The position numbers and the translations under genes were made by a program. Under the pieces are notes generated by a model that worked only from the letters and a program-made list of their open reading frames with translations, ran no database searches and was not told where the DNA came from. This document shows, piece after piece, positions 8,600 through 59,416 of a stretch of 64,000 nucleotides of DNA. This stretch comes from Bacteroidales bacterium. GTDB taxonomy: Bacteria; Bacteroidota; Bacteroidia; Bacteroidales; WCHB1-69. The DNA is taken from NCBI GenBank assembly GCA_024400635.1, contig JAKSMI010000004.1, positions 22,340 through 86,339 on the forward strand, written 5' to 3'. Position 1 is the first letter of the stretch, and each line of letters starts with the position of its first letter.

Positions 8600-8632
8600 A
8601 CGGGAAGAGATTTTGAATTTGACATACAAATC

Positions 8633-8770
8633 CCTTACCTACAAGCTTGCCTCAACCAATATCCCCAGTTAAATGGGGCATTGCAAGAATGCATTGCCTT
8701 GAAAAAATAATATTCCAAAGCAATCTAAAAATACACGATTTTCCACATAGCAGAATTTTTATTATCTTTG
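8633..8770. repeat. 138-bp direct repeat, copy 2
   Basis: Matches 6580-6717. It retains an orphan copy of the GT-C/TPR gene's last 26 codons and its stop codon. Confidence 0.9.
8763..8770 (+). promoter_or_regulatory. Bacteroidota-type -7 promoter box (TATCTTTG) inside repeat copy 2
   Basis: Lies 57 nt upstream of the gtrA ATG. An identical box occurs in copy 1 at 6710-6717. Confidence 0.4.
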
Positions 8771-8826
8771 CAGTTTATATTTAGGTTAAAAAAACATAAA
8801 AGAACGAAGCAAAAAGCAGTCTCGCA

Positions 8827-9225
8827 ATGATAGAAAAATTCAAGTTACTACTCCAAAAATATCGCAATTTCATTCTGTATTGCTGTATTGGTGTGATTAA
8901 TACGGGAGTGGATTTCGGCGTGTTTGCATTGTTGGATTGGGCAGGGCTCTATTACATCATAGCTCACGTCATCAGCTATCATTGCGGCATTTTTTGCAGT
9001 TTTTTCCTTAACAGGTATTATAATTTTAAGGTTAAGGACAAACCCGTGCATCGTTTTTTGTCTTTTTACGCTTCCAGTTTAGTGGCCATGGCTCTTAGCG
9101 CCGGACTACTATATCTATTTGTCACGGCATTTGGCTTGCCACACCTACTTGGTAAATTATTTGCCACCGCACTTATTGTCATTTGCCAATTCCTCTTTGT
9201 TAAATACTTTACCTTTAAAAAATAA
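8827..9225 (+). CDS. gtrA: GtrA-family small membrane protein (polyprenyl-phosphate-sugar flippase-like)
   Basis: 132 aa with four predicted TM helices. Carries an N-terminal (F)ILYCCIGVINTGVDFGVF motif typical of GtrA. Confidence 0.7.
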   Translation: MIEKFKLLLQKYRNFILYCCIGVINTGVDFGVFALLDWAGLYYIIAHVISYHCGIFCSFFLNRYYNFKVKDKPVHRFLSFYASSLVAMALSAGLLYLFVTAFGLPHLLGKLFATALIVICQFLFVKYFTFKK

Positions 9226-9229
9226 CAAC

Positions 9230-10156
9230 ATGCTCCTATCCGTAATTGTTCCTTGCTATAATGAAGAACTCGTGGTCCGCGAATCATATAGGCGGCTTAC
9301 AGATGTTTTGCGTCAAACCAACATGGACTACGAATTGATATTTATCAATGATGGAAGCAAAGATCAAACGTTTTCTATATTAAAGGAACTATCCCAAAGT
9401 GACACTGCCGTCAAAATCATCAATTTTGCCAGAAATTTCGGACACCAATGTGCCGTCACGGCCGGCATCAATAATTGCAAAGGAGACCTTGCCGTCATCA
9501 TTGATTCCGACTTGCAAGATCCCCCTGAAGTTATTTTGGATATGCTGGAGATTCAAAAGCGAGAAGATGCTAATGTGGTTTATGGCGTACGTAAAAAACG
9601 AGATGGCGAAACTTGGTTCAAGTTGGTAACGGCAAAATACTTCTATCGCACCTTGAACAAATTGTCAGAAGTCCATTTCCCCGTTGACACAGGCGATTTC
9701 CGTATGATTGACCGCAATATCATTGATTTGTTCAATAGTTTACATGAAAAAAACAAATACATTCGGGGGCTTATCAGTTGGATGGGATATAAACAAGTTC
9801 CTTGTTATTATGATAGAAAGGAACGTTTCGCTGGTGAAACACATTATCCACTGAAAAAAATGCTTAAGTTTGCCCTTACAGGTTTGCTTGGCTTTTCAAA
9901 AAAGCCACTTAAACTTGCATCTGCACTGGGCATTTTGTTTGTCACATTGAGTGTTTTATGTGCCATTATCCTGTTAATTATCAAATTGTGTAATCCTGAT
10001 TTTGTCGTCGGCTTAGGAAATATCGCACTACTCATTTCGTTTATTGGAGGATTGCAATTTATCACAATTGGTATCATTGGCGAATATTTGGCCAATATGT
10101 TTGATGAAGCCAAAGACAGACCTGAATATATCATTAAAAACAAAGTTAATTTTTAA
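9230..10156 (+). CDS. GtrB/ArnC-like family 2 glycosyltransferase (polyprenyl-phosphate glycosyltransferase)
   Basis: Starts at ATG 9230 (MLLSVIVPCYNEE) and carries INDGSKD and DSDLQDPPE motifs plus two C-terminal TM helices. The longer ORF from 9119 overlaps gtrA and is rejected. Confidence 0.75.
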   Translation: MLLSVIVPCYNEELVVRESYRRLTDVLRQTNMDYELIFINDGSKDQTFSILKELSQSDTAVKIINFARNFGHQCAVTAGINNCKGDLAVIIDSDLQDPPEVILDMLEIQKREDANVVYGVRKKRDGETWFKLVTAKYFYRTLNKLSEVHFPVDTGDFRMIDRNIIDLFNSLHEKNKYIRGLISWMGYKQVPCYYDRKERFAGETHYPLKKMLKFALTGLLGFSKKPLKLASALGILFVTLSVLCAIILLIIKLCNPDFVVGLGNIALLISFIGGLQFITIGIIGEYLANMFDEAKDRPEYIIKNKVNF

Positions 10157-10167
10157 TAACGCCTAAA

Positions 10168-11349
10168 ATGAATAACTTTTTCAAAGAAAACAAAAAAAAT
10201 CCGTGGTTTTGGGCATTTACTATTTTAAGCATAGTTCTCTTATTCGCAATGCCAATATTAAGTCTTGATGCCGGCAATAGTGGCGATGAAGACGGGTTCC
10301 AATGGCCATATGCTGAACAGATTTATAATTACTATGCCTCTGGCGGCCAAGATACCACCTGCCTGCAAAATGATGATATGGGTATGCATGGTGGTTTTTT
10401 TGACCAAATGACATACGCTTTCGTGAAATGGTTCAATATAGATGATTACAGTCAGTTCAGACATATCTGCAATGCTTTGTTCGGATGGATTGGCATTCTT
10501 TTTGCAGGACTTTTAGCATACAAACTCATTGGTTGGAGAGCTGCGGTTTTCACACTATTATTGATGTTTTTTTCGCCGCGCTATCTTGGGAACGCATTCA
10601 ACAATCCAAAAGACTTAATTTTTGCCTCTACAATGATGGCAAGCATATACTATGTCGCATGCTTGATAAAAGAGTATCCCAAACCTAAAATATCCACATC
10701 GATCAAGCTTTCTGTATTCGCAGCTTTAGCTATTGTATCTCGTTTTGCTGGATACTTGTTATTTGCCTACTTAGTACTTTTCCTCATTATTTACCACATT
10801 AGATTAAATAAGAAAAATAGTCTAAAAAAAGAAAATGCTAAAACCATTGGTAGATATATTCTTTATGTAACTGGCATAGGAATAGTAACCTTTGGTATAA
10901 GTATCGCATTATGGCCTTATATCATGTCTTCACCCATAAAGACTACGATGAAGATATTTACCGAGATGTCTCAATATACTATTTCTCTCCGCCAGCTCTT
11001 CGAGGGTACTTTGCAGTGGTCCGACGCACTTCCGTGGTACTACACCCCAAAATATATTTTGATGACTATTCCTATCGCCGTGATAGTCGGATTGCTACTA
11101 TTTTTCATTTTCTGCTGGCGCAAAAAGGAAGACCGCTTCTGGGCATTTGTCGTGTTCTTCACATTCTTCTTCCCCGTGTTCTGGATTGTCTATACCCACG
11201 CCAATGTTTATGGCGGCTGGCGTCATGCGATGTTCGCCTACCCTCCTATGGTCGTGGCCGCAGGTTGGGGTTTCGATGCCCTTTTGAAATGGGTGGAAGA
11301 AAAGTGGATGGTGGAAAATAAAGAAATGAGAACTGAGATTTGTGATTAG
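10168..11349 (+). CDS. GT-C fold (ArnT/PMT-like) membrane glycosyltransferase, probably C-terminally truncated
   Basis: Paralogous to residues 1 to about 390 of the 700-aa protein (FRHICNALFGW vs FRHLLCALFGF; GGWRHAMFAYP vs NGWRHETFIYS). It ends about 10 residues after the point where the paralog continues for another roughly 300 aa. Confidence 0.6.
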   Translation: MNNFFKENKKNPWFWAFTILSIVLLFAMPILSLDAGNSGDEDGFQWPYAEQIYNYYASGGQDTTCLQNDDMGMHGGFFDQMTYAFVKWFNIDDYSQFRHICNALFGWIGILFAGLLAYKLIGWRAAVFTLLLMFFSPRYLGNAFNNPKDLIFASTMMASIYYVACLIKEYPKPKISTSIKLSVFAALAIVSRFAGYLLFAYLVLFLIIYHIRLNKKNSLKKENAKTIGRYILYVTGIGIVTFGISIALWPYIMSSPIKTTMKIFTEMSQYTISLRQLFEGTLQWSDALPWYYTPKYILMTIPIAVIVGLLLFFIFCWRKKEDRFWAFVVFFTFFFPVFWIVYTHANVYGGWRHAMFAYPPMVVAAGWGFDALLKWVEEKWMVENKEMRTEICD

Positions 11350-49278: not shown

Positions 49279-49332
49279 GCTGCAATTTGTGTTTTATAAT
49301 GTACAATGGTTTGTTTTCCTGATTTTTTTTTC

Positions 49333-49367
49333 AATTCTTTCCAATATTTTAAAGATTGGAAAGAATT
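49333..49367. repeat. 35-bp palindromic element, copy 1 (aattctttccaat-N9-attggaaagaatt)
   Basis: 13-bp perfect arms. A near-identical copy lies at 50538-50572. Confidence 0.85.
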
Positions 49368-49436
49368 TTATTTAAAGACCTGCTCCACGTTCCTGCGGTT
49401 GCCGTCGATGGTGATTTGGATTTTATCCTGATTGAA
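49368..49436 (-). pseudogene. Fragment of an ndpA-like 3' region (left half of the split site)
   Basis: Reads FNQDKIQITIDGNRRNVEQ/VFK*. It matches RLDQKIQIIIDGNRENVEQ of the full gene up to the 9-bp core at 49379-49387, then diverges. Confidence 0.65.
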
Positions 49437-50288
49437 TCAAATGGCATCATCGTCTTTCGATTTCTTTTCGCCTTTCAGGGCTTTCTTTTCGTCGCTTTTC
49501 AAACGGCGTTCAACCTTTTTCACATCCTCAGCCGGTGGAAGATTTTCTGGCACGATTCCTCTTTCAATCAGCATTTTCCTAACGGCAAGATTGTTGTCAA
49601 CATGTTCCTTTTCAATGCTTTGCTCGCCCGACAAATCCTTAGCCTGAACATTGACGCTTGTCATTTCGGCTGCAAAATCCTTTGCCTTAATGCTGATTGT
49701 CGGTAGAAAATCGGCTATGGGACGACTATTTGGCACACCCATTTTTCTTTTCAGTTGCTGCGTGGTCAGATGGAACAAGGCTTGGTCGCCTTTCGAGCGG
49801 ATAATGGCAAATCCTTGGTCGTTCACACCTCTTTCATAAAGCACACCCGAAAGCTTCTTTTCCGTTTCCTGCAATTTTGCACGCGCTTTCACACGCTCCG
49901 CTTCCAACAGTCTCTGTTCCACAAGTTCAGCGCGGCGCGTCTGCACGGCAAAATAAGTCTGTGCAAATGCGATTTGCGGTTTCCGAGGGTCTCCGTTTTG
50001 TGCAATAAGATAGCAAGCGTAACGAGTCAGAAGGATGTCATCTATCTCATGCTGAGCACCTTTACCTGCTTCTATCACCTTGCTGACGTCAGCAAAGTGA
50101 TCCGATACTTTATTGCCAGCATTCCGGCATGATTCTTTTGCTTTGTCAACCGCATTCATAAAATTACGCCATTGCGAGTATCCCAAAATCGGATACAATT
50201 CTCTTGCGCTCCAACATTCCACGCCTTCCACCTCGGCCGCAGCCTGCTCAAACTGCTCAAACAACTGTTTTACTTCTTCTGTTTTCAT
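49437..50288 (-). CDS. dinD: DNA damage-inducible protein D
   Basis: [18 protein letters not shown]...[33 protein letters not shown] closely parallels E. coli DinD. ATG at 50288 (MKTEE) is conserved in the duplicated fragment; the track start at 50309 is GTG. Confidence 0.8.
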
Positions 50289-50367
50289 ATTTATTTTGAT
50301 TTGGTTCACATTTCTTGCCGGTAATACACCTTATAGAACTTGCCCCTTTCGTCCTCGCCCTGCTCCA
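50225..50367. repeat. 143-bp direct repeat, copy A (ndpA 3' end, spacer and the first 21 codons of dinD)
   Basis: Aligns with 52575-52717 at about 90 percent identity (about 14 mismatches by eye, mostly in the 17-nt spacer). Confidence 0.85.
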
Positions 50368-50524: not shown

Positions 50525-50537
50525 TTTATTTCACTCC

Positions 50538-50572
50538 AATTCTTTCCAATGTTTTAAAGATTGGAAAGAATT
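50538..50572. repeat. 35-bp palindromic element, copy 2
   Basis: Has the same 13-bp arms as 49333-49367. The loop differs at one position. Confidence 0.85.
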
Positions 50573-50630
50573 TATGTGCTTTTCAATTTACAATTTATAA
50601 TGAACACTGTGCAATGGTTTGAGCTTACGA

Positions 50631-51356
50631 TTACCAATTTATATTGTTTTCCAACGCCTCAACGTATTTTTTGTACAGGCAGATGAAAATTTCGTCAATT
50701 AATATCAAAATGGCAAAACGAAAGAAATAATTATGATAGATGTAATCGGAACTTGCTAATGTATCAAGTGTTGGTAAGTTTTGTTGATATGATGTTAGGT
50801 TATGGGCACAACGGTTGCGGTGCTTATAAACAATTTCATCGTATGATTTATGTAGGTCGGATTGAAATAGTATGTAAGTATCTTTTTGTTTTTGTTTGAT
50901 CTGATTATCCTTTAATATTGTGTTGTTTGACTTAAAATATGAGAAACTTTCTTGTTGAGCGGCTCGTAACAGATTGGGATTGTCTAAAATATTAAGAACT
51001 ATATTTTTAACGTCCTTAACATTTGCTGTAATAACATCTATATCGAACTGGGGGATTCGTTTGATTAAATCTTTATATATGTTGTTCTTACTACAATAAT
51101 CAGAATGCTCTCCGTAATTCTTATTATTCAGATATTCATACCGATACTCATAATCATTCGTGGCCATTTCCCAGCATATACACTTCATTTTTTGCTCTTG
51201 CGCACCTGTCATTTTTAAGAAAACCGATTGCATAATGTAATCGCACAATGGATATGTTTCAATACCGCTTCCAATACCTCGGATGGCATTAACACTATCT
51301 TCCAAAATCTTTGAGAGAGGCGTTGTTATGAATTTATAATGCTGGCTCTTGTACAT
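50631..51356 (-). CDS. HEPN-like protein (R-x4-H motif)
   Basis: KHRNRCAHN (RNRCAH = R-x4-H) lies in an alpha-helical protein of 241 aa. ATG at 51356 overlaps the DUF262 stop by 23 nt; the track start at 51395 is TTG. Confidence 0.55.
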   Translation of the reverse strand: MYKSQHYKFITTPLSKILEDSVNAIRGIGSGIETYPLCDYIMQSVFLKMTGAQEQKMKCICWEMATNDYEYRYEYLNNKNYGEHSDYCSKNNIYKDLIKRIPQFDIDVITANVKDVKNIVLNILDNPNLLRAAQQESFSYFKSNNTILKDNQIKQKQKDTYILFQSDLHKSYDEIVYKHRNRCAHNLTSYQQNLPTLDTLASSDYIYHNYFFRFAILILIDEIFICLYKKYVEALENNINW

Positions 51357-52542
51357 AGTCTTTGTAGATATTGATTGATGCTTTGATTCTCTCAACAGTA
51401 TATTTTAGAGCGTTTGGTGCTCGCTTATGGGCCTCTGATTTAAAATTGGCATCATTGATTTTATTCTTAATAGCAGAATCGAGATCATCCTTGTTTGTAA
51501 TATCAATAGTTTTCCCCTTAATAATAACATAGTAAATCAACCCGAGTAAATACATGTCGGCATCAATGATTGTGTTAAAGTCCTTTGGTATTGATAAATT
51601 GTTTAACGCTGACCTTAGTGCGTCAAGTCTGCTCGTAATATCATTATCTGGATTAGGAAAAACAAATGTTATTGCTGGGAATTTTTGGTGGTCTTTTTTC
51701 TCTTCCACAATAGTTGTAATAAATTCAGAAAAATATTCTTCTCGTTTTCTGCCATAGCCATAAGCCACTTTTGTAGTATTGGGATCATTTAATTTACAAA
51801 AATCAAAAAGATATGCCAAATAACGCACAAAGTCAGGATTTTTAGGTTCTGAATTTTGCATAATTGTAATACTCTTAAGAACACCTGAATCCAATAATTT
51901 CGTGTACTTTCCATTTAGGAAATATAATGCTCGGCGGCTCTCCTCTGGTAGCAATACTTTTCCTAATGTATTGATGTGCTTAAAAATACGTGAATAATAT
52001 TTTTGTTGTTCGTTTTGGTCTGAAGTGTTAGATACGATATAAGAGAATCCTAAAAAAGTATCTTCCAAAACCTCATCAGAAATTGTCTCCGCTAGATCAT
52101 CATATCGGTCGTCAGTTGCTATCTTTTGTCTTATGTTTTCTATATTCTTGCCCATCCCTAACAATTCATCAAATCTCCATTCCAAAATAGTTTTGTCTTC
52201 ACCTTCCGAGTCCATTCCATCATCACCCTCAGCAAGAGAATTTTCTTTTAATTTGAATTTTCCTGCATTAGGATACTTTTTTATACAAGCAAGGAGAATA
52301 CTTGTTAGGCGTTGTTGCCCATCAATGATGTAATTGTGCGTTTTGCCATCGCTTGCGGTAAAAGCACCTATTGTAATAGGCGGGACAAAGTCTTTATCTC
52401 TCAAAGACTGAATTAGTTTTTTTATACTTTCCTGATTCCAACAAAACTTCCTTTGATAACGCGGTAATTCAATATTGCCACTCAACATTAAACCAATCCA
52501 ATGTTTTAGTGAGTATTCTCCATAATAAACTCTATTTTTCAT
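51334..52542 (-). CDS. DUF262 (ParB/Srx-like) protein without a DUF1524/HNH domain
   Basis: ELPRYQRKFCW and IIDGQQRLTS hallmark motifs. The C-terminal roughly 200 aa were not recognised and no H-N-H motif was seen. ATG at 52542; the track start at 52548 is TTG. Confidence 0.7.
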   Translation of the reverse strand: MKNRVYYGEYSLKHWIGLMLSGNIELPRYQRKFCWNQESIKKLIQSLRDKDFVPPITIGAFTASDGKTHNYIIDGQQRLTSILLACIKKYPNAGKFKLKENSLAEGDDGMDSEGEDKTILEWRFDELLGMGKNIENIRQKIATDDRYDDLAETISDEVLEDTFLGFSYIVSNTSDQNEQQKYYSRIFKHINTLGKVLLPEESRRALYFLNGKYTKLLDSGVLKSITIMQNSEPKNPDFVRYLAYLFDFCKLNDPNTTKVAYGYGRKREEYFSEFITTIVEEKKDHQKFPAITFVFPNPDNDITSRLDALRSALNNLSIPKDFNTIIDADMYLLGLIYYVIIKGKTIDITNKDDLDSAIKNKINDANFKSEAHKRAPNALKYTVERIKASINIYKDYVQEPAL

Positions 52543-52554
52543 ATTCAATCCTCC

Positions 52555-52638
52555 TTAATTATTCATTGTTAATTCTTCCACCTCGGCGGCGGCTTGTTCA
52601 AACTGCTCAAACAACTGTTTTATTTCTTCTGTTTTCAT
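52555..52638 (-). pseudogene. 5' fragment of a second dinD copy
   Basis: [21 protein letters not shown] matches the first 21 codons of dinD. Then comes the unrelated ELTMNN*. Confidence 0.75.
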
Positions 52639-52717
52639 ATTTATGCTGTCTTAATTTACATTTCCTGCTGGTAATACACCTTATAGAACTTGCCCCTTTC
52701 GTCCTCGCCCTGCTCCA
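52575..52717. repeat. 143-bp direct repeat, copy B
   Basis: See copy A at 50225-50367. Confidence 0.85.
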
Positions 52718-53696
52718 CGTTCTCGCGGTTGCCGTCGATGATGATTTGGATTTTCTGGTCCAATCGAATGACACGCTTGTAGCTGCGTTGTTGCTTCTTG
52801 CGTGCCGATTCAGAAATGGTAAATTGGTCATCAATGGCGATTTGGCTTTCTTCTTCGTATGCGCGCTTGTACAGATGGAATTTTTCAATCACCTCTGGCT
52901 GTTCGATGACTTCGTTGGCAAACTCCTCAATGTCGAAAGTGTCCTTTTCCTTGAAAAACTTTAATGACTTGTTAAGCAGGTCGATTTGGTCGGCTTTAGT
53001 TACCTCAAATTCGTTAGGCAGTTCCTTTGTGACAAAATCCTTTGCAAAAGTCATGAAATTCTGCGTGTTGGCGTATTCGTCTTTACGCTGGCGCACGTGC
53101 AGGAAATCGTCCACCCAATATTGCGCTTCAATGCCTTTGTTGGTATTATCAACTACCGCCACGACATAACCGTTTTCCTTTTCCTTATTGAAAATCAGGC
53201 AGCCTTTATCCAATTTCTTGATATTGATGCCTTTTTCGCTTTCCAAATTGAAACTGTTGTTTTCGTGCAGCACCTTGAGGAAAGTGTCTTTGTTTTCCGA
53301 CTTGAACAAGCCGACCGCATCCATTGTTTCGCCATCCAAAATGCAATCCTTGAAATAGACGGTATAAAACTCACCGCCTTTGATTTTCGGATGTGTGCTT
53401 TGTTCGTAAAGATGCTTTGCCAGATTCACCGACTGATCATATAGCGCATCGGGATTGTCGAAAATACGGGAAACGTAGGTGTAAACAGCGTTAAGTTCAA
53501 GCTCGCTTTCGTGAAAAAATTCGAAATATTCGTTGGTGGTGAAAGGTGAGATATAATATAATAATAAAAGGTCTTTTAATCTATCATCTATATTTACAAA
53601 TGTATTAGATAATATTATTCCATCATCCGCAACTTTATTTCCGACAAAATGTAATGTAACATTTTGAATTTTTGATTCCAAGAATATTGCACTCAT
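52656..53696 (-). CDS. Nucleoid-associated protein, NdpA/YejK (NA37) family-like
   Basis: 346 aa. The N-terminus (IQNVTLHFVGNK) and overall pattern fit my memory of Bacteroidota NA37-family proteins. Its start overlaps the upstream stop codon as ATGA. Confidence 0.6.
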   Translation of the reverse strand: MSAIFLESKIQNVTLHFVGNKVADDGIILSNTFVNIDDRLKDLLLLYYISPFTTNEYFEFFHESELELNAVYTYVSRIFDNPDALYDQSVNLAKHLYEQSTHPKIKGGEFYTVYFKDCILDGETMDAVGLFKSENKDTFLKVLHENNSFNLESEKGINIKKLDKGCLIFNKEKENGYVVAVVDNTNKGIEAQYWVDDFLHVRQRKDEYANTQNFMTFAKDFVTKELPNEFEVTKADQIDLLNKSLKFFKEKDTFDIEEFANEVIEQPEVIEKFHLYKRAYEEESQIAIDDQFTISESARKKQQRSYKRVIRLDQKIQIIIDGNRENVEQGEDERGKFYKVYYQQEM

Positions 53697-54832
53697 CGTT
53701 TTTGCTGTTTTAAGTATTCCAAAAAGTTGTTATATACAACATTTTTTTGTCTATCCATCTCTGAAAGCAATTTTGATTTCAGTTTGTTTTTATCAGTTGT
53801 GCTTAGTCTTTTTTCTGAACTTAATTGTGAAATATTCATTTCAAATTCAGCATTACCAAATTTGTTAGGATAATCCGGAAAGCCTAAACTGATAGTAAAT
53901 TTACCTTTTTCTCCCCTGTAATTATATGAAAATACGGCATCCATATTCCATAGAATAATGGAATTATGATATTTGGTATCTTTCATAAAAAACTTATCAT
54001 TCAATGATTCTCCAGACAACAGAATCTTTTTCATTTTATCCATCCAAATAATTTCTTCAGGAAGGGCTGAATTATCATCCGGTTTGATTGAAATATCCTT
54101 TATGTTTTCGCAAGTAAAGTTGTCATTTTCTAAATGAGTTGTCAACCGGTAAAAAAACGCGAATCTCTCATTATTTGAAAATTCAGAAAAAATAATTTTC
54201 TTTAGTTTTGCATCTTGCGCAACAATTCCTTTCTCTTTAAATTTTTGAATTTGTTGTTTAATAATTTGTTCTGCAATCTCTTTCGTTTCTGGCGCAGTAT
54301 GAGTTATTTTAATATGTCCCTTACCATTCTCATTAATAATTTCGACTTTCCCTGGAAATTCATTTTTCTGCTCATACCATGATTTATTTCTATCATAGCG
54401 AATAATTGTAAAGTCAGCAATTAAGTGTTCTGGATTGTTGTCAACTTTCGTAAAACGAGTTGGATACTTTAATTCACAAGAAGGCAAGTTTTTCTTTAAG
54501 AAATCATTAATATCAACATTATTACAATCAGGGTGAAACAATGTTGCATTTGGATTAAATTCTATTTCTCTTGAAAACTTTTTTTCATTATCTTCTCTCT
54601 CAGATAACGACAATCTCACTTCTTCAAATTCTTTGGGCGACAATAAAAGTGTTTGCAGAATAGGTACGGTGTATGATTTGTCGTTATTAAGTGCAAATAC
54701 TCCACGTTCTTTTAATATCCGGTGTATTTCCGCATTAGAAATAGAACTCTGGTTAACAAAACCTCGGAGCATTTCTCCAAAAGGCAACATCTTATCAATA
54801 TCGTTTTGACTTACATTCATATTAATACACAT
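53693..54832 (-). CDS. Hypothetical protein, 379 aa, no recognisable domain
   Basis: A long ORF, AT-rich and Lys/Asn-rich. ATG at 54832 overlaps the upstream gene by 11 nt; the alternative ATG at 54820 lies 1 nt after its stop. Confidence 0.6.
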   Translation of the reverse strand: MCINMNVSQNDIDKMLPFGEMLRGFVNQSSISNAEIHRILKERGVFALNNDKSYTVPILQTLLLSPKEFEEVRLSLSEREDNEKKFSREIEFNPNATLFHPDCNNVDINDFLKKNLPSCELKYPTRFTKVDNNPEHLIADFTIIRYDRNKSWYEQKNEFPGKVEIINENGKGHIKITHTAPETKEIAEQIIKQQIQKFKEKGIVAQDAKLKKIIFSEFSNNERFAFFYRLTTHLENDNFTCENIKDISIKPDDNSALPEEIIWMDKMKKILLSGESLNDKFFMKDTKYHNSIILWNMDAVFSYNYRGEKGKFTISLGFPDYPNKFGNAEFEMNISQLSSEKRLSTTDKNKLKSKLLSEMDRQKNVVYNNFLEYLKQQKR

Positions 54833-55754
54833 TTAAAAGATTTCTGTAATTCTCCACGGTAACAGTTTTTGTAAATTCATTATCCTGAAAACCTTGTTTC
54901 GATTCTGCTACAATGTTTTTATGCAACAAATTATTATAATCTGGGAAAGCTATAATCACATCTCCTACCCAATTTGATGATATATCTTTTGCTAGTCCCA
55001 TTAAACGTTTCAGGTCTGCGGCTTCAAAATTATCTATACTTGCCAATAACAAAGCTATTTCTTTTTCGTTGCTCTTTTTCATCAACTTTATTGGAATGAT
55101 ACTTGAATTCAGATATTCAACAGGAAGGATTGAGCCTGTATTATTCCTGTTTTGTGGATTTAAATTTTGACCTGTTGCTGGATAATAAAAGAAATAGTTA
55201 TATTCTGTTTTTGATTTGATATAACTCATCACTTCTAAGATAAAACCAACTCGTTTGTTATCCATGATATAAATAGTATTATTCTTGAAAGAATCAATTC
55301 GTACAGTTGACACTGCATTAATTAAATCATCATAACCATCTTCGCTATTATTCAACCAAAATAGTACTCCAACATCATTAATTGTTGTTGGATGAAAGTT
55401 GGGTATTATTGAATCTTTTTGCGGAGAACAATCAAAACATTCAATAGTGTTAATTAAGTCCAGCATATACTTTTTAAAAGTACTTTGTGGACTATTGGGA
55501 TATTTATCATTACTATATTTTGATGATATTACGATATTGTTTAATTGTCCATCAACAAGAGGATTCATGTAGGAATATAAGAAATCTATCCCATGTGTTC
55601 TTGCTGGTTCTCCTTTAGAATTTAAATGTTCCCCATTCTGTTGAGAGCAATCAATTTGAATTCCTTTTGCCAAATCTGACCATCCTATTACGGATAAGAA
55701 TCTTTCGACGACAGATTCTCCGTATTCTCCTATTTTTTTAGACCATTCACCCAT
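54822..55754 (-). CDS. Hypothetical protein, 310 aa, possible PD-(D/E)xK-like N-terminal core
   Basis: GEYGESVVERFLSVIGW...HGIDFLYS...NIVISSKY resembles a nuclease-fold G-x-x-GE ... D ... (E/S)xK arrangement. This is weak evidence, read by eye only. Confidence 0.55.
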   Translation of the reverse strand: MGEWSKKIGEYGESVVERFLSVIGWSDLAKGIQIDCSQQNGEHLNSKGEPARTHGIDFLYSYMNPLVDGQLNNIVISSKYSNDKYPNSPQSTFKKYMLDLINTIECFDCSPQKDSIIPNFHPTTINDVGVLFWLNNSEDGYDDLINAVSTVRIDSFKNNTIYIMDNKRVGFILEVMSYIKSKTEYNYFFYYPATGQNLNPQNRNNTGSILPVEYLNSSIIPIKLMKKSNEKEIALLLASIDNFEAADLKRLMGLAKDISSNWVGDVIIAFPDYNNLLHKNIVAESKQGFQDNEFTKTVTVENYRNLLNVY

Positions 55755-55795
55755 AGTTATTTGATTTATTTATTTGTTGTTATTTCCGTATATTT

Positions 55796-58237
55796 TTATT
55801 TCCCAATTCTTTCCACATACCTTTTCAGCATCTCCATTTCCTTGCGTTTCATATAGTTTTCCATGAAAACATAGTCCGGCTCGCCTTTGGAATTTACTGG
55901 AAGCATGATAGTAAACGAATTTAAGCGATTTGAATTTATTGAATGTCCGTGCCCGAAAAACTCTTCTTGCATGGAAATGCAACGAGACAAAAACACCTGT
56001 ATGTGCTTTGACAGTTCTTGTTTAGGATACAAAGCCGTAACATGACTATCTAACGCAAAATCAAATGGCTGGTAGTAGGCTAAACCTGCACCACCGTCAC
56101 CATCATTGTTGAGAGTGACACAATGTCCCTGATACAAATTTTGTGTCTCAACAAAAGACCTCAAACCATTATTCACTTTTCTTGCAGAAACCAAAGGCAC
56201 ATCTCCATCTTGCAAAGAATTCATATCTGTTTGATTTCCTTTATTCGGAGTGAACAATTTTATTAATCTAAAAGGTTTCCATTCTTTATTATCAATTCGT
56301 TCTATTTTCGGCAATTCACCAATTCGTTCCCTTCTTTCTGAATTATCAAACAAATACCCGCGTCCGTGGGCAATCATGTTAAACTCAAAAGTGAGGTAGT
56401 CGGCCATTGTCTTTTCAAAGTCGGCTTCGGTCGGGATGTCCTCGTTGAAATAATAGAACGAATGCAGCCATTCATCTTCGGCTTCAACGGTGGAAGTCAC
56501 CATGAAGTCGTTGGTGGTATGCCTGCCCATCAGCCAACATTCCAACAAAAGTTTCTTGCGCTCCTTGGCTTGCTCGGTCGGCAGCAGCCCCAAATGCGGA
56601 AACACCACAAAGCCGTCATCCTTAAAGTTAATGAACTTACTGTATTTGTTTTTCGGGTGCGGACGATGAGCGGTGAAAACGGCAATCACGGGATTGGTGC
56701 CAACGCCGTAGAAAGTCTGAGGATTCAAGGTTATCACGCCTTCCAAAGTATGGTTTTCCAGAATATAGCGTTTGTCGATTTTGTCTTCCTTGGTTTTACC
56801 TACCATAGTGCTTTGTGGCACAATCACCACGCAACGTGCGCCATCGGCCAACGAATCAAGCAAATGGCAGATGAATTTCAATTCCGTAAGTTCGGCTGTC
56901 GTTTTGTTTTTGCCTTGCGAATAAGGCGGATTCATGAAACCGACGGTGAAGTTTTTCTTTCGCAGTTCCTCGGCTGGCTGTTTCAGAAAATCGGCACAAA
57001 TCAGATTGCTTTTTCCATCGCCGCGCAAAATCATGTTGGTTGTGGCAATCGAAAACATATCGTCACGCAACTCAATGCCATGCAAACGCTCTTTCTTTAT
57101 GGTGTGCTGTTCGTCGCGGCTCGCATTTTTCAACATTCGGTGCATGGCCGAAATCAGGAAGCCGCCCGTGCCGCAACAAGGGTCAAAGACTTTGTCGGTC
57201 GGTTTCAAATCGGCTAAATCGACAAAAAGCTCCGTAATGTGTTTCGGTGTCAGCACAACGCCCAATGTCTGTCCGTCGCCACCACTGTAACGGATAAACT
57301 CGCCATAGAAACGCCCCAAGACATCTTCAGGCGAATTGTTGCAAATGGCGGTGAGGATATTAGAATAAAGATATTCAGCAAAATAACGCAATGGTGACTT
57401 GCCCAATTTGGAACTGAACTCCGATAAATGCGGACGGTTTTTTATCAGTCGGAACTGGTCGAGAACCTTTTCCTTTTTCACTTGCGGCTGAACGTGAACG
57501 CTGTCCATGTGTTTTGAAAGGGCATCAAAAATTTTGTCGCCGTCAGTCTCTCCGTTTTCCCGCGAAGCGGTCAGTTGCTCAGTGTCGAAATTCTGTTCCT
57601 GCAAGGCAAGCAAGATGGCAGACACCACCAAAGGTTTTTCCGAATCGCCCAACTGTCCGTAATTGCGCAAATCCTCATGCAGTTGTCCGGCACGTTTCAG
57701 AATCACTTCCAATTCCGCCTGTTCCACAGTCTTGCTGCCCAAGACCTCAGTGCGATAATAATTGGTGATTTTTTCAGCCGTAAAATTCTCAAAACTCTTT
57801 ACTTTTTTGAGAATCTGATAGCCGTTCTCACTCACGAAAATAGGACGAATGATGATTCTTTCATCCTGCGTGCCCGAACAGCCAAAGGCAAAGACCTTTT
57901 TGAAATGCGTCTTTTCAATGATGTTCAGGGCATAATGCAAGGCACCGTTTTCTGCATAGTTAGTCACGCTTGATGTGTCCATTAGAAGCGTGTCCTCTCT
58001 TTCGTTCATGTATTTTGCCTGCTTCGTCTGGTCGGCCTTATCCTCGATGACGATGATAAACTCGCCAGATTGAGCGACAAATTCAGGGAATCCGGTTTTG
58101 CCCGTTCCTCGTTTCGAAGACGTTTTGAGGGCTTCATTGATTTCCTCAATCTGGCTGCCATTCATCGTAAAATCGAGGCCAGCCTTTGTGAGCAATTGCG
58201 CCACAATGAAATCGGTTTTCTTCTCGTAGTCAGTCAT
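55796..58237 (-). CDS. Single-chain restriction-modification enzyme, Type IIG/IIB-like (nuclease-like N-domain + N6-adenine methyltransferase + HsdS-like TRD)
   Basis: The N-terminus (GFPEFVAQSGEFIIVIEDKAD) has a PE...ExK pattern. FDPCCGTGGF is SAM motif I and FMNPPY is motif IV. The C-terminal roughly 190 aa look like a TRD. ATG at 58237; the track start at 58240 is GTG. Confidence 0.7.
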   Translation of the reverse strand: MTDYEKKTDFIVAQLLTKAGLDFTMNGSQIEEINEALKTSSKRGTGKTGFPEFVAQSGEFIIVIEDKADQTKQAKYMNEREDTLLMDTSSVTNYAENGALHYALNIIEKTHFKKVFAFGCSGTQDERIIIRPIFVSENGYQILKKVKSFENFTAEKITNYYRTEVLGSKTVEQAELEVILKRAGQLHEDLRNYGQLGDSEKPLVVSAILLALQEQNFDTEQLTASRENGETDGDKIFDALSKHMDSVHVQPQVKKEKVLDQFRLIKNRPHLSEFSSKLGKSPLRYFAEYLYSNILTAICNNSPEDVLGRFYGEFIRYSGGDGQTLGVVLTPKHITELFVDLADLKPTDKVFDPCCGTGGFLISAMHRMLKNASRDEQHTIKKERLHGIELRDDMFSIATTNMILRGDGKSNLICADFLKQPAEELRKKNFTVGFMNPPYSQGKNKTTAELTELKFICHLLDSLADGARCVVIVPQSTMVGKTKEDKIDKRYILENHTLEGVITLNPQTFYGVGTNPVIAVFTAHRPHPKNKYSKFINFKDDGFVVFPHLGLLPTEQAKERKKLLLECWLMGRHTTNDFMVTSTVEAEDEWLHSFYYFNEDIPTEADFEKTMADYLTFEFNMIAHGRGYLFDNSERRERIGELPKIERIDNKEWKPFRLIKLFTPNKGNQTDMNSLQDGDVPLVSARKVNNGLRSFVETQNLYQGHCVTLNNDGDGGAGLAYYQPFDFALDSHVTALYPKQELSKHIQVFLSRCISMQEEFFGHGHSINSNRLNSFTIMLPVNSKGEPDYVFMENYMKRKEMEMLKRYVERIGK

Positions 58238-58601
58238 CACTTTACCTTATTATCTATGTTTCAATCTTACAAAACGTCAGCGGCATAAAACCCGCTTAAA
58301 TATTTTGATTATTTTCGTTTAAAAAGTTGCGTATATCATTGATTACAAGTGCTTTTTTTAGTGCATAAAACCAAACGACCAACAGTCTCTAACACGCGCA
58401 ACTTGGCTGCAAAGTTCGCAAAATTTCCTGACATCTGTAAGAGATTCTCTAAAAAATTATCAACAGGCATGGGATATAAGTTGCCGGTCGGTTTTAAAAC
58501 TTGTGAAAGTTAAAATTTTTCTTTACATTTTACGTGATATATTATTTTTATTTCTATTTTTTCAGTCAAATTAACAATTACATATTCAGTTAATGAAAAC
58601 C

Positions 58602-58735
58602 GTCAGCTGACACGGCTGAACAGACATTGATGTCGGCAAAAACTGTCAGGCGACGAAAAAAACAGACATTAATGTCGAAAAATTTGTCAAACGGTGCGCA
58701 GGAATAGACATTAATGTCAATATCATAAACAGACA
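58602..58735. promoter_or_regulatory. Phased array of GACA/TGTC palindromes (operator- or iteron-like)
   Basis: gtcagctgac starts at 58602, gacattgatgtc at 58623, and gacattaatgtc at both 58665 and 58707. The last three are exactly 42 bp apart. TGTC/GACA half-sites sit about 21 bp out of phase at 58644, 58685 and 58732. Confidence 0.55.
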
Positions 58736-58762
58736 ATGAAAAAACCTTAAAATAAACATATC

Positions 58763-59416
58763 ATGAAACAGCTTGTAAGGATAATCCAGAATTTCAAGAT
58801 TGTAGGTGCGACGCACACGATCATCACAATTGTAAACAGTTATGACAACAAGGAACAGGTGAAGGCATTGACGGACAGGCTCGGTGTCTTGTGCGACCAG
58901 TTTGTGGACATCAACAAGGAGTTCGTTGACGGCAGCAATATGCGTGCGGCGGATAAGAACGTCGATGCGATGTTCCGCACGGTGAAGATGCTTGCTGATG
59001 CGTATTCACGATGGCCGGAGGCTGATGTCCAGTCAGCCGCGAAACATCTGTATGGCATGGTTTCGGAATACGGACATTTCAGCAGGAAGAGCTATGACGA
59101 GAAGCCTGTGGCGGTGGAATCGTTGGTGACGGACCTCGGCAAAGACGGGGTGAAGGACATGGTGGCGCTGATACCCGGGCTGCCGGCGGCCGTGGACAAG
59201 CTCAAGGAGTACGGTGAGGCTATGGCGGCAAGCCATTACGAACACAGCAGCCTCGTCTCCGCAAAAATGTCGCAGGCCAAGTCGCGCGACATCGTCCGGC
59301 AGATCGCCGGCATCCTCAACGACGAGCTTTTGGTACTGCTCAACGCCGCAGCCATCGAGGACCAGAACAACACCAATAAGAGCACCGGCTTTTCCGTCCG
59401 CTGTCTAAGGGACTAA
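58763..59416 (+). CDS. Helical hypothetical protein (possibly DUF6261-like) ending in a GFSVRCLRD tail
   Basis: Visibly GC-richer than its surroundings. The tail matches the usual C-terminus of FISUMP-domain proteins, which suggests a fusion or remnant. Confidence 0.45.
   Translation: MKQLVRIIQNFKIVGATHTIITIVNSYDNKEQVKALTDRLGVLCDQFVDINKEFVDGSNMRAADKNVDAMFRTVKMLADAYSRWPEADVQSAAKHLYGMVSEYGHFSRKSYDEKPVAVESLVTDLGKDGVKDMVALIPGLPAAVDKLKEYGEAMAASHYEHSSLVSAKMSQAKSRDIVRQIAGILNDELLVLLNAAAIEDQNNTNKSTGFSVRCLRD

What the first reader, a model, noticed from the sequence alone, without database searches (positions are those of the whole stretch)
52656..58240. Coupled four-gene operon (Type IIG-like RM fusion + two orphan proteins + NdpA/YejK-like protein): best candidate for an undescribed defence system
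Four same-strand genes run from 58237 down to 52656. Their junctions are a 41-nt gap, then either an 11-nt overlap or a 1-nt spacer, then a 4-nt ATGA overlap, so they are very probably co-translated. Gene 1 combines a PE...ExK nuclease-like N-domain, SAM motif I (FDPCCGTGGF), NPPY and one HsdS-like TRD. Genes 2 (310 aa) and 3 (379 aa) match nothing I can name. Gene 2 opens with GEYGESVVERFL...HGIDFLY...IVISSKY, which may be a PD-(D/E)xK-like core with Ser replacing Glu. Gene 4 looks like an NA37 nucleoid-associated protein. To my knowledge, that family is not a component of any named anti-phage system. Genes 2 and 3 are visibly more AT-rich than the methylase gene. The operon also sits in an island with NERD, DinD and DUF262/HEPN genes. 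A DNA-coating or DNA-bridging protein wired to a methylase and a putative nuclease would be a new logic, for example self/non-self marking plus nucleoid-level sensing.
Basis: partly seen in the sequence, partly recalled or inferred. Interest (0 to 1): 0.8.

Follow-up and report, generated by a model that had tools for sequence, protein, structure and literature searches.

The report
RM plus GAPS4–nucleoid-protein defence operon
The four genes are real and co-oriented, but they are a restriction-modification enzyme followed by the already named GAPS4 anti-phage nuclease pair and a YejK-like nucleoid protein. In Bacteroidota that protein almost always follows GAPS4 as a third gene, a linkage not stated in the two source papers read here.

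Summary
In detail: there are four minus-strand ORFs with the stated junctions. The interpretation as an undescribed system is only partly right.

- **Gene 1** is a Type IIG R-M-S fusion (PADLOC 8.9e-173).
- **Genes 2 and 3** are GAPS4a and GAPS4b (NCBIfam 2e-109 and 2.3e-107, both above cutoff). GAPS4 is a published DNA-break-triggered abortive-infection DNase. Gene 2 carries its HGxD-SxK motif.
- **Gene 4** is an NA37/YejK-like nucleoid protein. This family was shown in 2026 (PANGU, DefensePredictor) to act in anti-phage defence.

What is new:
- In Bacteroidota, GAPS4a-GAPS4b-NA37 is a conserved, tightly coupled trio (71 of 73 informative metagenome contigs). Two Enterobacterales plasmids carry only the GAPS4 pair.
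- The upstream RM partner varies (Type I, II, IIG, III, or none).
- The same conserved NA37 body follows at least eight other cassette types, including PANGU-like pairs, or stands alone.
- NA37 is mosaic. Its first ~50 codons travel with the cassette, and the rest follows lineage.
- In this window the exchanged block is 53544-58280: RM, GAPS4 and the NA37 5' end.

Most likely this is an RM gene plus a GAPS4-NAP variant sitting at an NA37-anchored recombination hotspot. Functional coupling between NAP and GAPS4 is inferred, not shown.

The parts
55796..58240 (-). G1: Type IIG R-M-S fusion enzyme, 814 aa. It has a PD-(D/E)xK-type nuclease N-domain (PEF52...IEDK65), a gamma-class N6-adenine MTase (FDPCCGTGGF352, NPPY437) and a single HsdS-like TRD (residues ~641-814, 55796-56320).
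   Evidence: PADLOC REase_MTase_IIG PDLC03602, 8.9e-173, over residues 6-637. Pfam N6_Mtase 3.7e-34 and Methylase_S 3.3e-10. Motif positions. The TRD (55911-56346) is non-homologous to L001 while its flanks are 87-97% identical, which indicates a TRD swap.
54822..55754 (-). G2: GAPS4a, a divergent PD-(D/E)xK DNase subunit, 310 aa. Catalytic motif H54-G55-I-D57 ... S77-S-K79.
   Evidence: NCBIfam NF047933 antiphage_GapS4a, 2e-109, 365.5 bits against a cutoff of 270. Homologs carry the precomputed label PF26115 PDDEXK_GAPS4. H54, G55, D57, S77, K79 and G9, E10, G12, E13 are invariant in 53 of 53 trio homologs.
53693..54832 (-). G3: GAPS4b, the partner subunit of the GAPS4 complex. It is 379 aa, or more probably 375 aa from the ATG at 54820.
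   Evidence: NCBIfam NF047934 antiphage_GapS4b, 2.3e-107, 358.9 bits against a cutoff of 300. Homologs carry PF26110 GAPS4b_N.
52656..53696 (-). G4: an NA37/YejK-like nucleoid-associated protein, 346 aa. It overlaps G3 by ATGA and has an invariant basic patch H200-V-R-Q-R-K205.
   Evidence: Pfam NA37 PF04245, 1.9e-33. There are 6848 homologs, and the top 120 are at least 72% identical. Invariant columns are listed.
53546..53696 (-). The cassette-linked, AT-rich 5' module of G4 (about codons 1-50).
   Evidence: GC jumps from 0.19 to 0.40 at ~53550. DNA homology to same-lineage loci that carry other cassettes begins at 53543 (L002), 53502 (L009) and 53584 (L010). Pairs from the same lineage with different cassettes show identity of 0.25-0.53 over residues 1-50, against 0.86 and higher from residue 61.
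53544..58280 (-). The exchangeable block: G1, G2, G3 and the first ~50 codons of G4.
   Evidence: WIN and L002 are 92% identical at 52647-53543. They match again in overlapping alignments across 58281-59379 (78-92% identity). The interior is replaced in L002 by a different IIG R-M-S gene, a 301-aa gene, a 176-aa TM gene and a different NA37 5' end.
58279..58296 (.). A small GC-rich hairpin (AGCGGGTTTTATGCCGCT) at the left edge of the exchangeable block.
   Evidence: Found. It coincides with the homology breakpoint at 58281. Its function is not established.
52575..52717 (-). Direct repeat copy 1: the NA37 3' end, a spacer and the dinD 5' start. It includes the truncated dinD' ORF at 52557-52640.
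   Evidence: Repeat D1, 143 nt, 90% identical to 50225-50367. The sequence is shown.
50225..50367 (-). Direct repeat copy 2: an NA37 3' remnant followed by the start of the full dinD gene. Together with copy 1 it brackets the GmrSD_N + HEPN-like cassette at 50631-52548.
49379..49424 (-). A third NA37 3'-end remnant (encoding KIQIIIDGNRENVEQ), lying between dinD and the NERD gene.
   Evidence: Repeat D3, 93% identical to 52709-52754.

Best explanation
The cluster is a composite defence operon, not one new four-part machine.

1. G1 is a self-contained Type IIG restriction-modification enzyme, with nuclease, N6-adenine methylase and one target-recognition domain in a single chain.
2. G2 and G3 are GAPS4. 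In published work GAPS4a2b2 is a non-selective PD-(D/E)xK DNase that is switched on by DNA breaks and aborts infection.
3. G4 is a YejK-like nucleoid-associated protein. In Bacteroidota it is the near-obligatory third gene of GAPS4.

By analogy with PANGU, I infer the following mechanism. The NAP sits on intact chromosomal DNA. It is released when DNA is broken or degraded. It then gates activation of the GAPS4 nuclease, either licensing it or setting its threshold. The NAP's N-terminal ~50 residues belong to the cassette and may form the effector-facing part.

Separately, and as shown here, the conserved NA37 body acts as the homology anchor of a recombination hotspot. Whole blocks (RM + effector pair + NA37 5' end) are swapped upstream of it, and further defence cassettes accumulate downstream.

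Shown:
- the gene identities;
- the conservation of the trio;
- the variability of the RM partner;
- the mosaic structure and the breakpoints.

Inferred:
- physical or functional coupling between NAP and GAPS4;
- the direction of any regulation.
For: GAPS4 mechanism and motif:
- Both are taken from bioRxiv 10.1101/2025.09.07.674715.
- The motif is invariant here.

Conservation of the trio:
- NA37 lies 11 nt of overlap to 15 nt of gap downstream of GAPS4b in 71 of 73 informative metagenome contigs.
- The same arrangement is found in Parabacteroides, Chryseobacterium, a Saprospiraceae genome and a 5.9-Mb genome, in unrelated flanks.
- Two Enterobacterales plasmids carry GAPS4a+b alone.

Co-variation within 53 distinct trios:
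- GAPS4b against GAPS4a: r = 0.92.
- GAPS4b against NA37 residues 1-50: r = 0.82.
- GAPS4b against the NA37 body: r = 0.66.

The PANGU precedent:
- YejK-like NAPs clamp long dsDNA.
- They are released on genome degradation.
- They bind and activate diverse effectors.
- Interface residues of Pag1A include K6, E47 and K52.
- The paper lists a 'Cluster4' with two hypothetical genes upstream of the NAP.

DefensePredictor validated a defence unit containing a YejK domain.
Against: - The same NA37 body also stands alone next to housekeeping genes. This is the case in 28 of 72 species-level loci.
- The NA37 body also follows cassettes that already contain their own NA37 paralog plus an effector. It therefore need not be the cognate sensor of whatever lies upstream.
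- The NA37 body tracks lineage, not cassette.
- Two-gene GAPS4 is sufficient in E. coli, although that host has its own YejK.
- No acidic DNA-mimic domain of the kind PANGU effectors use is evident in G2 or G3. Their net charges are -8 and +1, and they have the same length as the enterobacterial homologs.
- The cross-lineage, cassette-specific signal in the NA37 N-terminus is statistically real but small (0.376 against 0.328).
- No structural model could be obtained.
Confidence: 0.55

Rival explanations
1. NA37 is only a passive anchor. It is a resident housekeeping nucleoid protein whose very conserved coding sequence serves as a homology arm for exchanging defence cassettes. GAPS4 is one of many cassettes that spread through Bacteroidota by recombining at this gene. 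The tight coupling and co-occurrence reflect that route of spread, and there is no functional interaction.
For: - Stand-alone NA37 genes lie in housekeeping synteny.
- At least nine different upstream cassette types share the same NA37 body, including complete PANGU-like pairs with their own NAP.
- In Segatella/Prevotella the downstream synteny is the same while the upstream pair differs (L012, L014, L031, L032).
- The NA37 body follows lineage.
- NA37 3'-end remnants are duplicated between the downstream cassettes in this window.
- Tyrosine integrases lie upstream of the cassette in Segatella.
Against: - In the GAPS4-centred sample NA37 is nearly always present, in 71 of 73 informative contigs. 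This holds across orders and in unrelated flanks, including a Chryseobacterium locus next to ParB and resolvase genes.
- Every cassette type ends within -49 to +19 nt of the NA37 start, whereas stand-alone genes have 180-650 nt upstream.
- The N-terminal module co-varies with GAPS4b more than the body does.
- The PANGU precedent places N-terminal NAP residues at the effector interface.
Confidence: 0.3
2. All four genes form one obligate system in which the methylase marks self DNA, and the nucleoid protein and nuclease read that mark.
For: - The four genes are co-oriented, with gaps of 41 nt or less.
- RM + pair + NA37 5' end is exchanged as one block between WIN and L002.
- An RM system of some type lies directly upstream in most of the trio loci whose upstream genes were annotated.
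Against: - The upstream partner is not conserved. It can be Type IIG, Type IIG plus a separate S subunit, BanI R + C5 MTase, an EcoRI-like MTase + GmrSD-HNH, Type III Res/Mod, Type I, AlwI, SMC+TIR, HipBA or nothing.
- GAPS4 works without any methylase.
- The G1 TRD has been swapped independently of G2-G4.
Confidence: 0.07
3. NA37 acts as a brake or antitoxin-like buffer rather than as an activating sensor. It limits GAPS4 self-toxicity, because GAPS4 sensitises cells to any DNA break.
For: GAPS4 is described as a 'double-edged sword' that sensitises cells to nalidixic acid and to T6SS DNases. NA37 is encoded last and is translationally coupled to G3.
Against: In PANGU the NAP is an activator, not an antitoxin. 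There are no data here on direction.
Confidence: 0.08

Closest known systems
GAPS4 (GAPS4a/GAPS4b; Mahata et al., bioRxiv 10.1101/2023.03.28.534373 and 10.1101/2025.09.07.674715)
   Same: - G2 and G3 score above the NCBIfam cutoffs for GapS4a and GapS4b.
- The HGxD-SxK catalytic motif is invariant.
- The genes are in tandem, in a-then-b order.
- Fused a-b forms also occur in related loci.
- Bacteroidales homologs, including my L012 contig from Prevotella baroniae, are already listed in that paper's Dataset S1.
   Different: The published system is defined and validated as two genes. In the Bacteroidota clade examined here, a translationally coupled NA37 gene is a near-constant third member. 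That paper does not mention this: a term search for nucleoid, YejK, NdpA and NA37 returned nothing.
PANGU and PANGU-like NAP operons (Li et al., bioRxiv 10.64898/2026.04.06.716658)
   Same: - A YejK-like NA37 protein sits in a tight operon with effector-type genes inside a defence island next to RM.
- That paper's 'Cluster4' (two conserved hypothetical proteins upstream of the NAP) may be this very trio.
- Loci related to this one carry type I-like pairs (NA37 paralog + RelA_SpoT) and type II-like pairs (NA37 paralog + TM protein).
   Different: - PANGU is defined as bicistronic, with an effector that bears an acidic DNA-mimic domain.
- Here the candidate effector is a two-subunit DNase that is itself known to sense DNA breaks.
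- No acidic domain is evident.
- The NAP body is shared among unrelated cassettes and with stand-alone genes.
- GAPS4 is not named in that paper.
Type IIG/IIB single-chain R-M-S enzymes (REBASE classes; examples recalled from memory are HaeIV, AloI and CjeI)
   Same: The domain order is N-terminal PD-(D/E)xK nuclease, then gamma N6-adenine methylase, then an HsdS-like TRD. The PADLOC IIG profile matches end to end.
   Different: G1 has one TRD only (814 aa). The 1264-1321-aa two-TRD relatives occupy the same slot in L002 and L009. Specificity and cleavage have not been tested.
Core-gene-flanked defence hotspots (for example the P. aeruginosa core defence hotspots, PMC10250203, known to me by title and abstract only)
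   Same: Variable defence cargo lies between conserved flanks at a syntenic site.
   Different: Here one breakpoint lies inside the conserved gene, so each cassette brings its own first ~50 codons. Remnants of the gene's 3' end separate the downstream cassettes.

Membership tests
GAPS4 | A GAPS4a homolog (PD-(D/E)xK family) that scores above the curated family threshold | tested here: met
   NF047933, 365.5 bits against a cutoff of 270, covering residues 1-303 of 310.
GAPS4 | The non-canonical catalytic motif HGxD ... SxK near the N-terminus | tested here: met
   H54-G-I-D57 and S77-S-K79, invariant in 53 of 53 related GAPS4a proteins. The motif is defined.
GAPS4 | A GAPS4b homolog encoded immediately downstream of GAPS4a | tested here: met
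   NF047934, 358.9 bits against a cutoff of 300. The junction is an 11-nt overlap or a 1-nt spacer.
GAPS4 | An a2b2 heterotetramer with DNase activity triggered by DNA breaks, giving abortive infection | not testable with these tools
   This needs biochemistry and phage assays. It is described for the Vibrio and E. coli systems only.
GAPS4 | A two-gene system that is sufficient on its own | not testable with these tools
   The genomic pattern here is three genes. Sufficiency of G2+G3 is unknown.
PANGU / PANGU-like | A YejK-like NAP (NA37 family) core protein | tested here: met
   Pfam PF04245, 1.9e-33, covering residues 47-324.
PANGU / PANGU-like | The NAP lies in an operon (neighbours less than 40 bp apart) with a non-NAP effector and near known defence genes | tested here: met
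   G3 and G4 overlap by 4 nt. An RM gene, DinD, a GmrSD_N gene and a NERD gene lie within 10 kb.
PANGU / PANGU-like | A bicistronic architecture (one NAP plus one effector) | tested here: not met
   Two non-NAP genes precede the NAP. At best this corresponds to the untested 'Cluster4' class of PANGU-like operons.
PANGU / PANGU-like | An effector that carries an acidic DNA-mimicking (DMK) domain bound by the NAP | tested here: inconclusive
   Net charges are G2 -8 and G3 +1, and there is no extra domain relative to the NA37-less enterobacterial homologs. A charge profile is a crude test, and no complex model was possible.
PANGU / PANGU-like | NAP binding to long dsDNA through a basic patch, with relocalisation on genome degradation | not testable with these tools
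   An invariant H-V-R-Q-R-K patch at 200-205 is present, but its equivalence to Pag1A K200/R203/K204 was not aligned.
Type IIG restriction-modification | A single polypeptide with a PD-(D/E)xK nuclease, SAM-binding motif I, catalytic NPPY/F and a target-recognition domain | tested here: met
   PEF52/IEDK65, FDPCCGTGGF352 and NPPY437. Methylase_S covers 651-799. PADLOC REase_MTase_IIG, 8.9e-173.
Type IIG restriction-modification | Demonstrated methylation and cleavage at a defined site | not testable with these tools
   This needs long-read methylome data or enzymology.

The most novel reading that the evidence does not exclude
In Bacteroidota, one conserved YejK-like nucleoid protein may be a shared, split-gene sensor for a whole family of interchangeable abortive-infection effectors.

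The effectors seen upstream of it are:
- the GAPS4 DNase;
- toxSAS pairs;
- several families of membrane proteins.

Each cassette would bring its own ~50-residue N-terminal adaptor, which plugs into the resident DNA-binding body.

On this reading, GAPS4's known 'DNA-break sensing' would be mediated by a NAP. In E. coli and Vibrio that could be the host's own YejK/NdpA. This would unify GAPS4 and PANGU as one class of nucleoid-integrity sentinels.
Probability: 0.3. Interest if true: 0.78.

Novelty: new variant of a known kind. Interest (0 to 1): 0.55.

Why it matters
GAPS4 and the NAP-based PANGU systems were described independently as sentinels of genome integrity. This locus and its relatives show the two joined in one operon across a phylum, which gives a concrete and testable hypothesis for how GAPS4 senses DNA damage.

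The mosaic NA37 gene, with a swappable 5' module and a lineage-constant body, also shows how defence cassettes are exchanged in gut and rumen Bacteroidales without an obvious integrase. It offers a simple bait for discovery: the genes ending within about 25 nt upstream of this NA37. That bait already yields at least four families of '~300-aa protein plus small membrane protein' pairs that match no PADLOC, NCBIfam or Pfam defence model.

Tried and rejected
- **Pfam and PADLOC on G2 and G3.** The local Pfam-A and PADLOC-2023 libraries gave no hits. Only NCBIfam named the proteins. PHROGs gave weak families of unknown function.
- **AlphaFold2 of G4.** The run used the 20-sequence alignment A1 and gave a mean pLDDT of 49.6. 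The model is unusable, so no fold search was run. The alignment was too shallow, because only homologs of at least 72% identity were available.
- **Sequence search of the PDB.** Nothing was found for NA37 or GAPS4a. GAPS4b gave only weak LRR-like noise.
- **Site-specific insertion into the NA37 5' end (dusA-like).** I looked for direct repeats at the two block boundaries (about 53545 and 58281). None of at least 20 nt was reported, so I favour homologous exchange. Integrases do occur upstream in Segatella, so this is not excluded elsewhere.
- **First coarse test of N-terminal co-variation.** Using residues 1-85, it showed almost nothing (0.46 against 0.42). The signal became clear only when pairs were split by lineage and narrower windows were used.
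- **Source genome.** The look-up for the 100%-identical protein returned no DNA, so the source genome and its NA37 copy number could not be examined.
- **Promoter and terminator scan.** Results were at chance level, and the scan is not designed for Bacteroidota promoters.
- **tRNA scan.** No tRNA genes were found in the window.

Full report
**1. Observation**

Four minus-strand ORFs occupy 52656-58240:
- G1: 55796-58240, 814 aa.
- G2: 54822-55754, 310 aa.
- G3: 53693-54832, 379 aa. An in-frame ATG at 54820 gives 375 aa, the length of the 99%-identical database protein P0121.
- G4: 52656-53696, 346 aa.

G1 to G2 is a 41-nt gap. G2 to G3 is an 11-nt overlap, or a 1-nt spacer with the alternative start. 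G3 to G4 is an ATGA overlap.

The quoted motifs are all present. G1 has PEF52, IEDK65, FDPCCGTGGF352 and NPPY437. G2 has HGID54 and SSK77.

The composition shift is real and sharp. GC is about 0.47 in the R-M part of G1. It is about 0.3 from the G1 TRD through G2, G3 and the first ~150 nt of G4. It returns to about 0.42 from ~53550 onward.

**2. What the genes are**

G1 matches a PADLOC Type IIG REase-MTase profile end to end (8.9e-173, residues 6-637). It adds a Pfam Methylase_S TRD at residues 651-799.

G2 and G3 gave nothing in the local Pfam or PADLOC-2023 libraries. They match NCBIfam antiphage_GapS4a (2e-109, 365 bits, cutoff 270) and antiphage_GapS4b (2.3e-107, 359 bits, cutoff 300). 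Their homologs carry the newer Pfam labels PDDEXK_GAPS4 and GAPS4b_N.

GAPS4 was discovered in Vibrio GMT islands (bioRxiv 10.1101/2023.03.28.534373). It was later characterised in detail (bioRxiv 10.1101/2025.09.07.674715):
- both genes are required;
- GAPS4a is a divergent PD-(D/E)xK enzyme with an HGxD-SxK motif;
- the complex is a2b2;

H54, G55, D57, S77 and K79 are invariant in 53 of 53 related proteins.

G4 is a Pfam NA37 protein (1.9e-33).

**3. NA37 in defence is no longer unknown**

A 2026 preprint describes PANGU (bioRxiv 10.64898/2026.04.06.716658). Its main points are:
- YejK-like NAPs sit in two-gene operons with a toxSAS effector (type I) or a membrane effector (type II).
- The NAP dimer clamps long dsDNA and is released when phage nucleases degrade the chromosome.
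- It then binds and activates the effector.
- The main Pag1A-Pag1B interface includes Pag1A residues K6, E47, K52, E278 and D282.
- Ten PANGU-like clusters are listed, and 'Cluster4' has two conserved hypothetical proteins upstream of the NAP.
- GAPS4 is not mentioned.

DefensePredictor (PMC13092281) independently validated a defence unit containing a YejK domain. Conversely, the GAPS4 paper never mentions a nucleoid protein. Its Dataset S1 nevertheless lists Bacteroidales homologs, including the Prevotella baroniae contig that is my locus L012.

**4. Is the trio a unit?**

I first sampled starting from GAPS4b.
- Four lineages were examined: Parabacteroides faecis, Chryseobacterium, a Saprospiraceae genome and a 5.9-Mb genome. 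All show GAPS4a-GAPS4b-NA37 with gaps of -4 to +3 nt, in unrelated flanks.
- A metagenome scan with a GAPS4b alignment returned 80 contigs, with matches 47-68% identical to G3. NA37 is the next gene in 71 of the 73 contigs that extend far enough.
- Two Enterobacterales plasmids (Pantoea, Ewingella) carry GAPS4a+b with no NA37.

In the Bacteroidota clade sampled here, a three-gene form is therefore the rule.

The upstream partner is not constant. It can be:
- a Type IIG enzyme, fused to its S domain or with a separate S subunit;
- BanI R + C5 methylase;
- an EcoRI-like methylase + GmrSD_N-HNH;
- Type III Res/Mod;
- Type I RM;
- AlwI;
- an SMC-like ATPase + TIR;
- HipBA;
- tyrosine integrases;
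- nothing.

The RM gene is a frequent neighbour, not a fixed component.

**5. The view from NA37**

I then scanned one genome per species with an NA37 alignment. This gave at least 577 hits, and I fetched 80 loci at 59-90% identity. I called and clustered the ORFs myself.

Of 72 informative loci:
- 28 have a stand-alone NA37 with 180-650 nt upstream, next to housekeeping genes such as a THUMP-like methyltransferase or an AMP-binding/acyltransferase gene;
- 44 have a same-strand gene ending within 25 nt upstream.

Those 44 break down as follows:
- 13 GAPS4, separate or fused;
- 13 with a divergent NA37 paralog plus a protein with C-terminal TM helices (PANGU type II-like; Pfam NA37 7.8e-19 and 6.4e-55);
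- 3 with an NA37 paralog plus RelA_SpoT (type I-like, 4.1e-20);
- 11 with a ~300-aa soluble protein plus a small multi-TM protein, with essentially no database match;
- 4 singletons.

In Segatella and Prevotella the downstream synteny is constant while the upstream pair differs. L005 and L049 share ffh/folD downstream but carry different pairs.

**6. NA37 is mosaic**

Grouped alignments show cassette-specific N-termini joined to lineage-specific bodies.

Quantitatively, take NA37 pairs whose bodies are at least 85% identical but whose cassettes differ. Their identity is 0.25-0.53 over residues 1-50, which is the background level. It rises to 0.64 at residues 51-60, 0.86 at 61-70 and about 0.95 beyond residue 90.

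At the DNA level:
- This window and L002 are 92% identical at 52647-53543. They match again in overlapping alignments across 58281-59379 (78-92% identity).
- The interior (53544-58280) is replaced in L002 by a different IIG enzyme, a 301-aa gene, a 176-aa TM gene and a different NA37 5' end.
- Homology to L009 starts at 53502 and to L010 at 53584.
- The GC step lies at the same place.
- Against L001, which carries the same cassette, everything is 87-97% identical except the G1 TRD (55911-56346). The TRD has been swapped.

Within 53 distinct trios:
- GAPS4b identity correlates with GAPS4a at r = 0.92.
- It correlates with NA37 residues 1-50 at r = 0.82.
- It correlates with the NA37 body at r = 0.66.
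- Discordant pairs occur in both directions.

Across lineages the cassette-specific N-terminal signal is significant but small. It is 0.376 against 0.328 (permutation p <= 0.0005), and it is absent for residues 51-90.

**7. Downstream of NA37 in this window**

A 143-nt direct repeat (NA37 3' end + dinD 5' start, 90% identical) brackets the GmrSD_N + HEPN-like cassette. A third NA37 3' remnant lies between dinD and the NERD gene. A 37-nt perfect-stem palindrome occurs twice between cassettes. NA37 therefore also anchors cassette turnover on its 3' side.

**8. Interpretation**

Shown:
- The cluster is a Type IIG RM gene, GAPS4 and a YejK-like NAP.
- The GAPS4-NAP trio is conserved in the Bacteroidota GAPS4 clade sampled here.
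- The RM partner is variable.
- RM + pair + NA37 5' end is an exchange unit anchored on the conserved NA37 body.

Inferred:
- The NAP works with GAPS4, by analogy with PANGU and because both respond to loss of DNA integrity.

Evidence that weakens the inference:
- the same NA37 body serves unrelated cassettes, some of which have their own NAP;
- the NA37 body also exists alone;
- two-gene GAPS4 suffices in E. coli, a host with its own YejK;
- no acidic DNA-mimic domain is visible in G2 or G3;
- I could not obtain a usable structure.

I put functional coupling at about 0.55 and a purely passive anchor at about 0.3. The two are not mutually exclusive.

**9. Novelty and score**

Four points appear to be new, or at least are not stated in the two source papers:
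- the near-obligate GAPS4-NAP trio in Bacteroidota;
- the split, mosaic NA37 gene;
- the NA37-anchored exchange of whole RM + effector blocks;
- several uncharacterised cassette families found with this bait.

I classify the finding as a new variant of a known kind, with interest 0.55.

Noticed in passing
window 50225-50367 and 52575-52717; 49379-49424 and 52709-52754: Direct repeats derived from the NA37 3' end (plus the dinD 5' start) bracket the GmrSD_N/HEPN-like cassette and recur after dinD. A truncated dinD' ORF ([27 protein letters not shown]) lies at 52557-52640. This pattern suggests serial cassette insertion by recombination at the NA37/dinD junction.
   Followed up: partly
window 49332-49368 and 50537-50573: A 37-nt palindrome with a 13-bp perfect stem, CAATTCTTTCCAAT(A/G)TTTTAAAGATTGGAAAGAATTT, occurs twice between defence cassettes, on either side of dinD. 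It could be a terminator or a recombination site.
   Followed up: no
window 58600-58730: Three copies of a GACAT(T/C)AATGTC palindrome lie in the 520-nt intergenic region between G1 and the divergent DUF6261 gene (58763-59416). The arrangement looks like an operator, but no regulator was identified.
   Followed up: no
window 55911-56346 compared with L001: The target-recognition domain of the Type IIG enzyme is non-homologous between this window and a close relative. The flanking DNA is 87-97% identical. This is a clean TRD (specificity) swap.
   Followed up: partly
L002 8559-10000; L009 8372-10001; L031 8551-9989; L032 ~8390-10008: Four families of '~300-330-aa soluble protein plus a 150-215-aa protein with 2-5 TM helices' sit exactly where GAPS4 sits, tightly coupled to NA37. 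They have no hit in PADLOC or NCBIfam. The only signals are a weak DUF6731 match and a PDC-M67A match for one of them. They are candidate new abortive-infection pairs.
   Followed up: partly
L011 and L014 (about 7430-11008); L010: In these loci a second, divergent NA37 paralog (349-350 aa) and a ~500-aa protein with three C-terminal TM segments precede the conserved NA37. Two NAP genes therefore flank one effector.
   Followed up: partly
L012, L014, L031, L078 (Segatella/Prevotella); also L103-L106: One or two tyrosine integrase genes (Arm-DNA-bind_5 + Phage_integrase) lie 300-420 nt upstream of the variable pair at the NA37 locus. Site-specific recombination may contribute to cassette turnover in that genus.
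   Followed up: no
L022, L033, L035-L037, L039, L042, L072, L088: Near-identical Bacteroidales-type NA37 loci are binned into MAGs labelled Treponema, Campylobacter, Solobacterium, Proteocatella or Hyphomicrobiales. This is either mis-binning or recent inter-phylum transfer of the module.
   Followed up: no
window 50631-51395: The 254-aa protein downstream of the GmrSD_N gene has no family hit in Pfam, NCBIfam or PADLOC. It carries an Rx4H motif (RNRCAH at residue 193), which is consistent with a HEPN RNase partner.
   Followed up: partly
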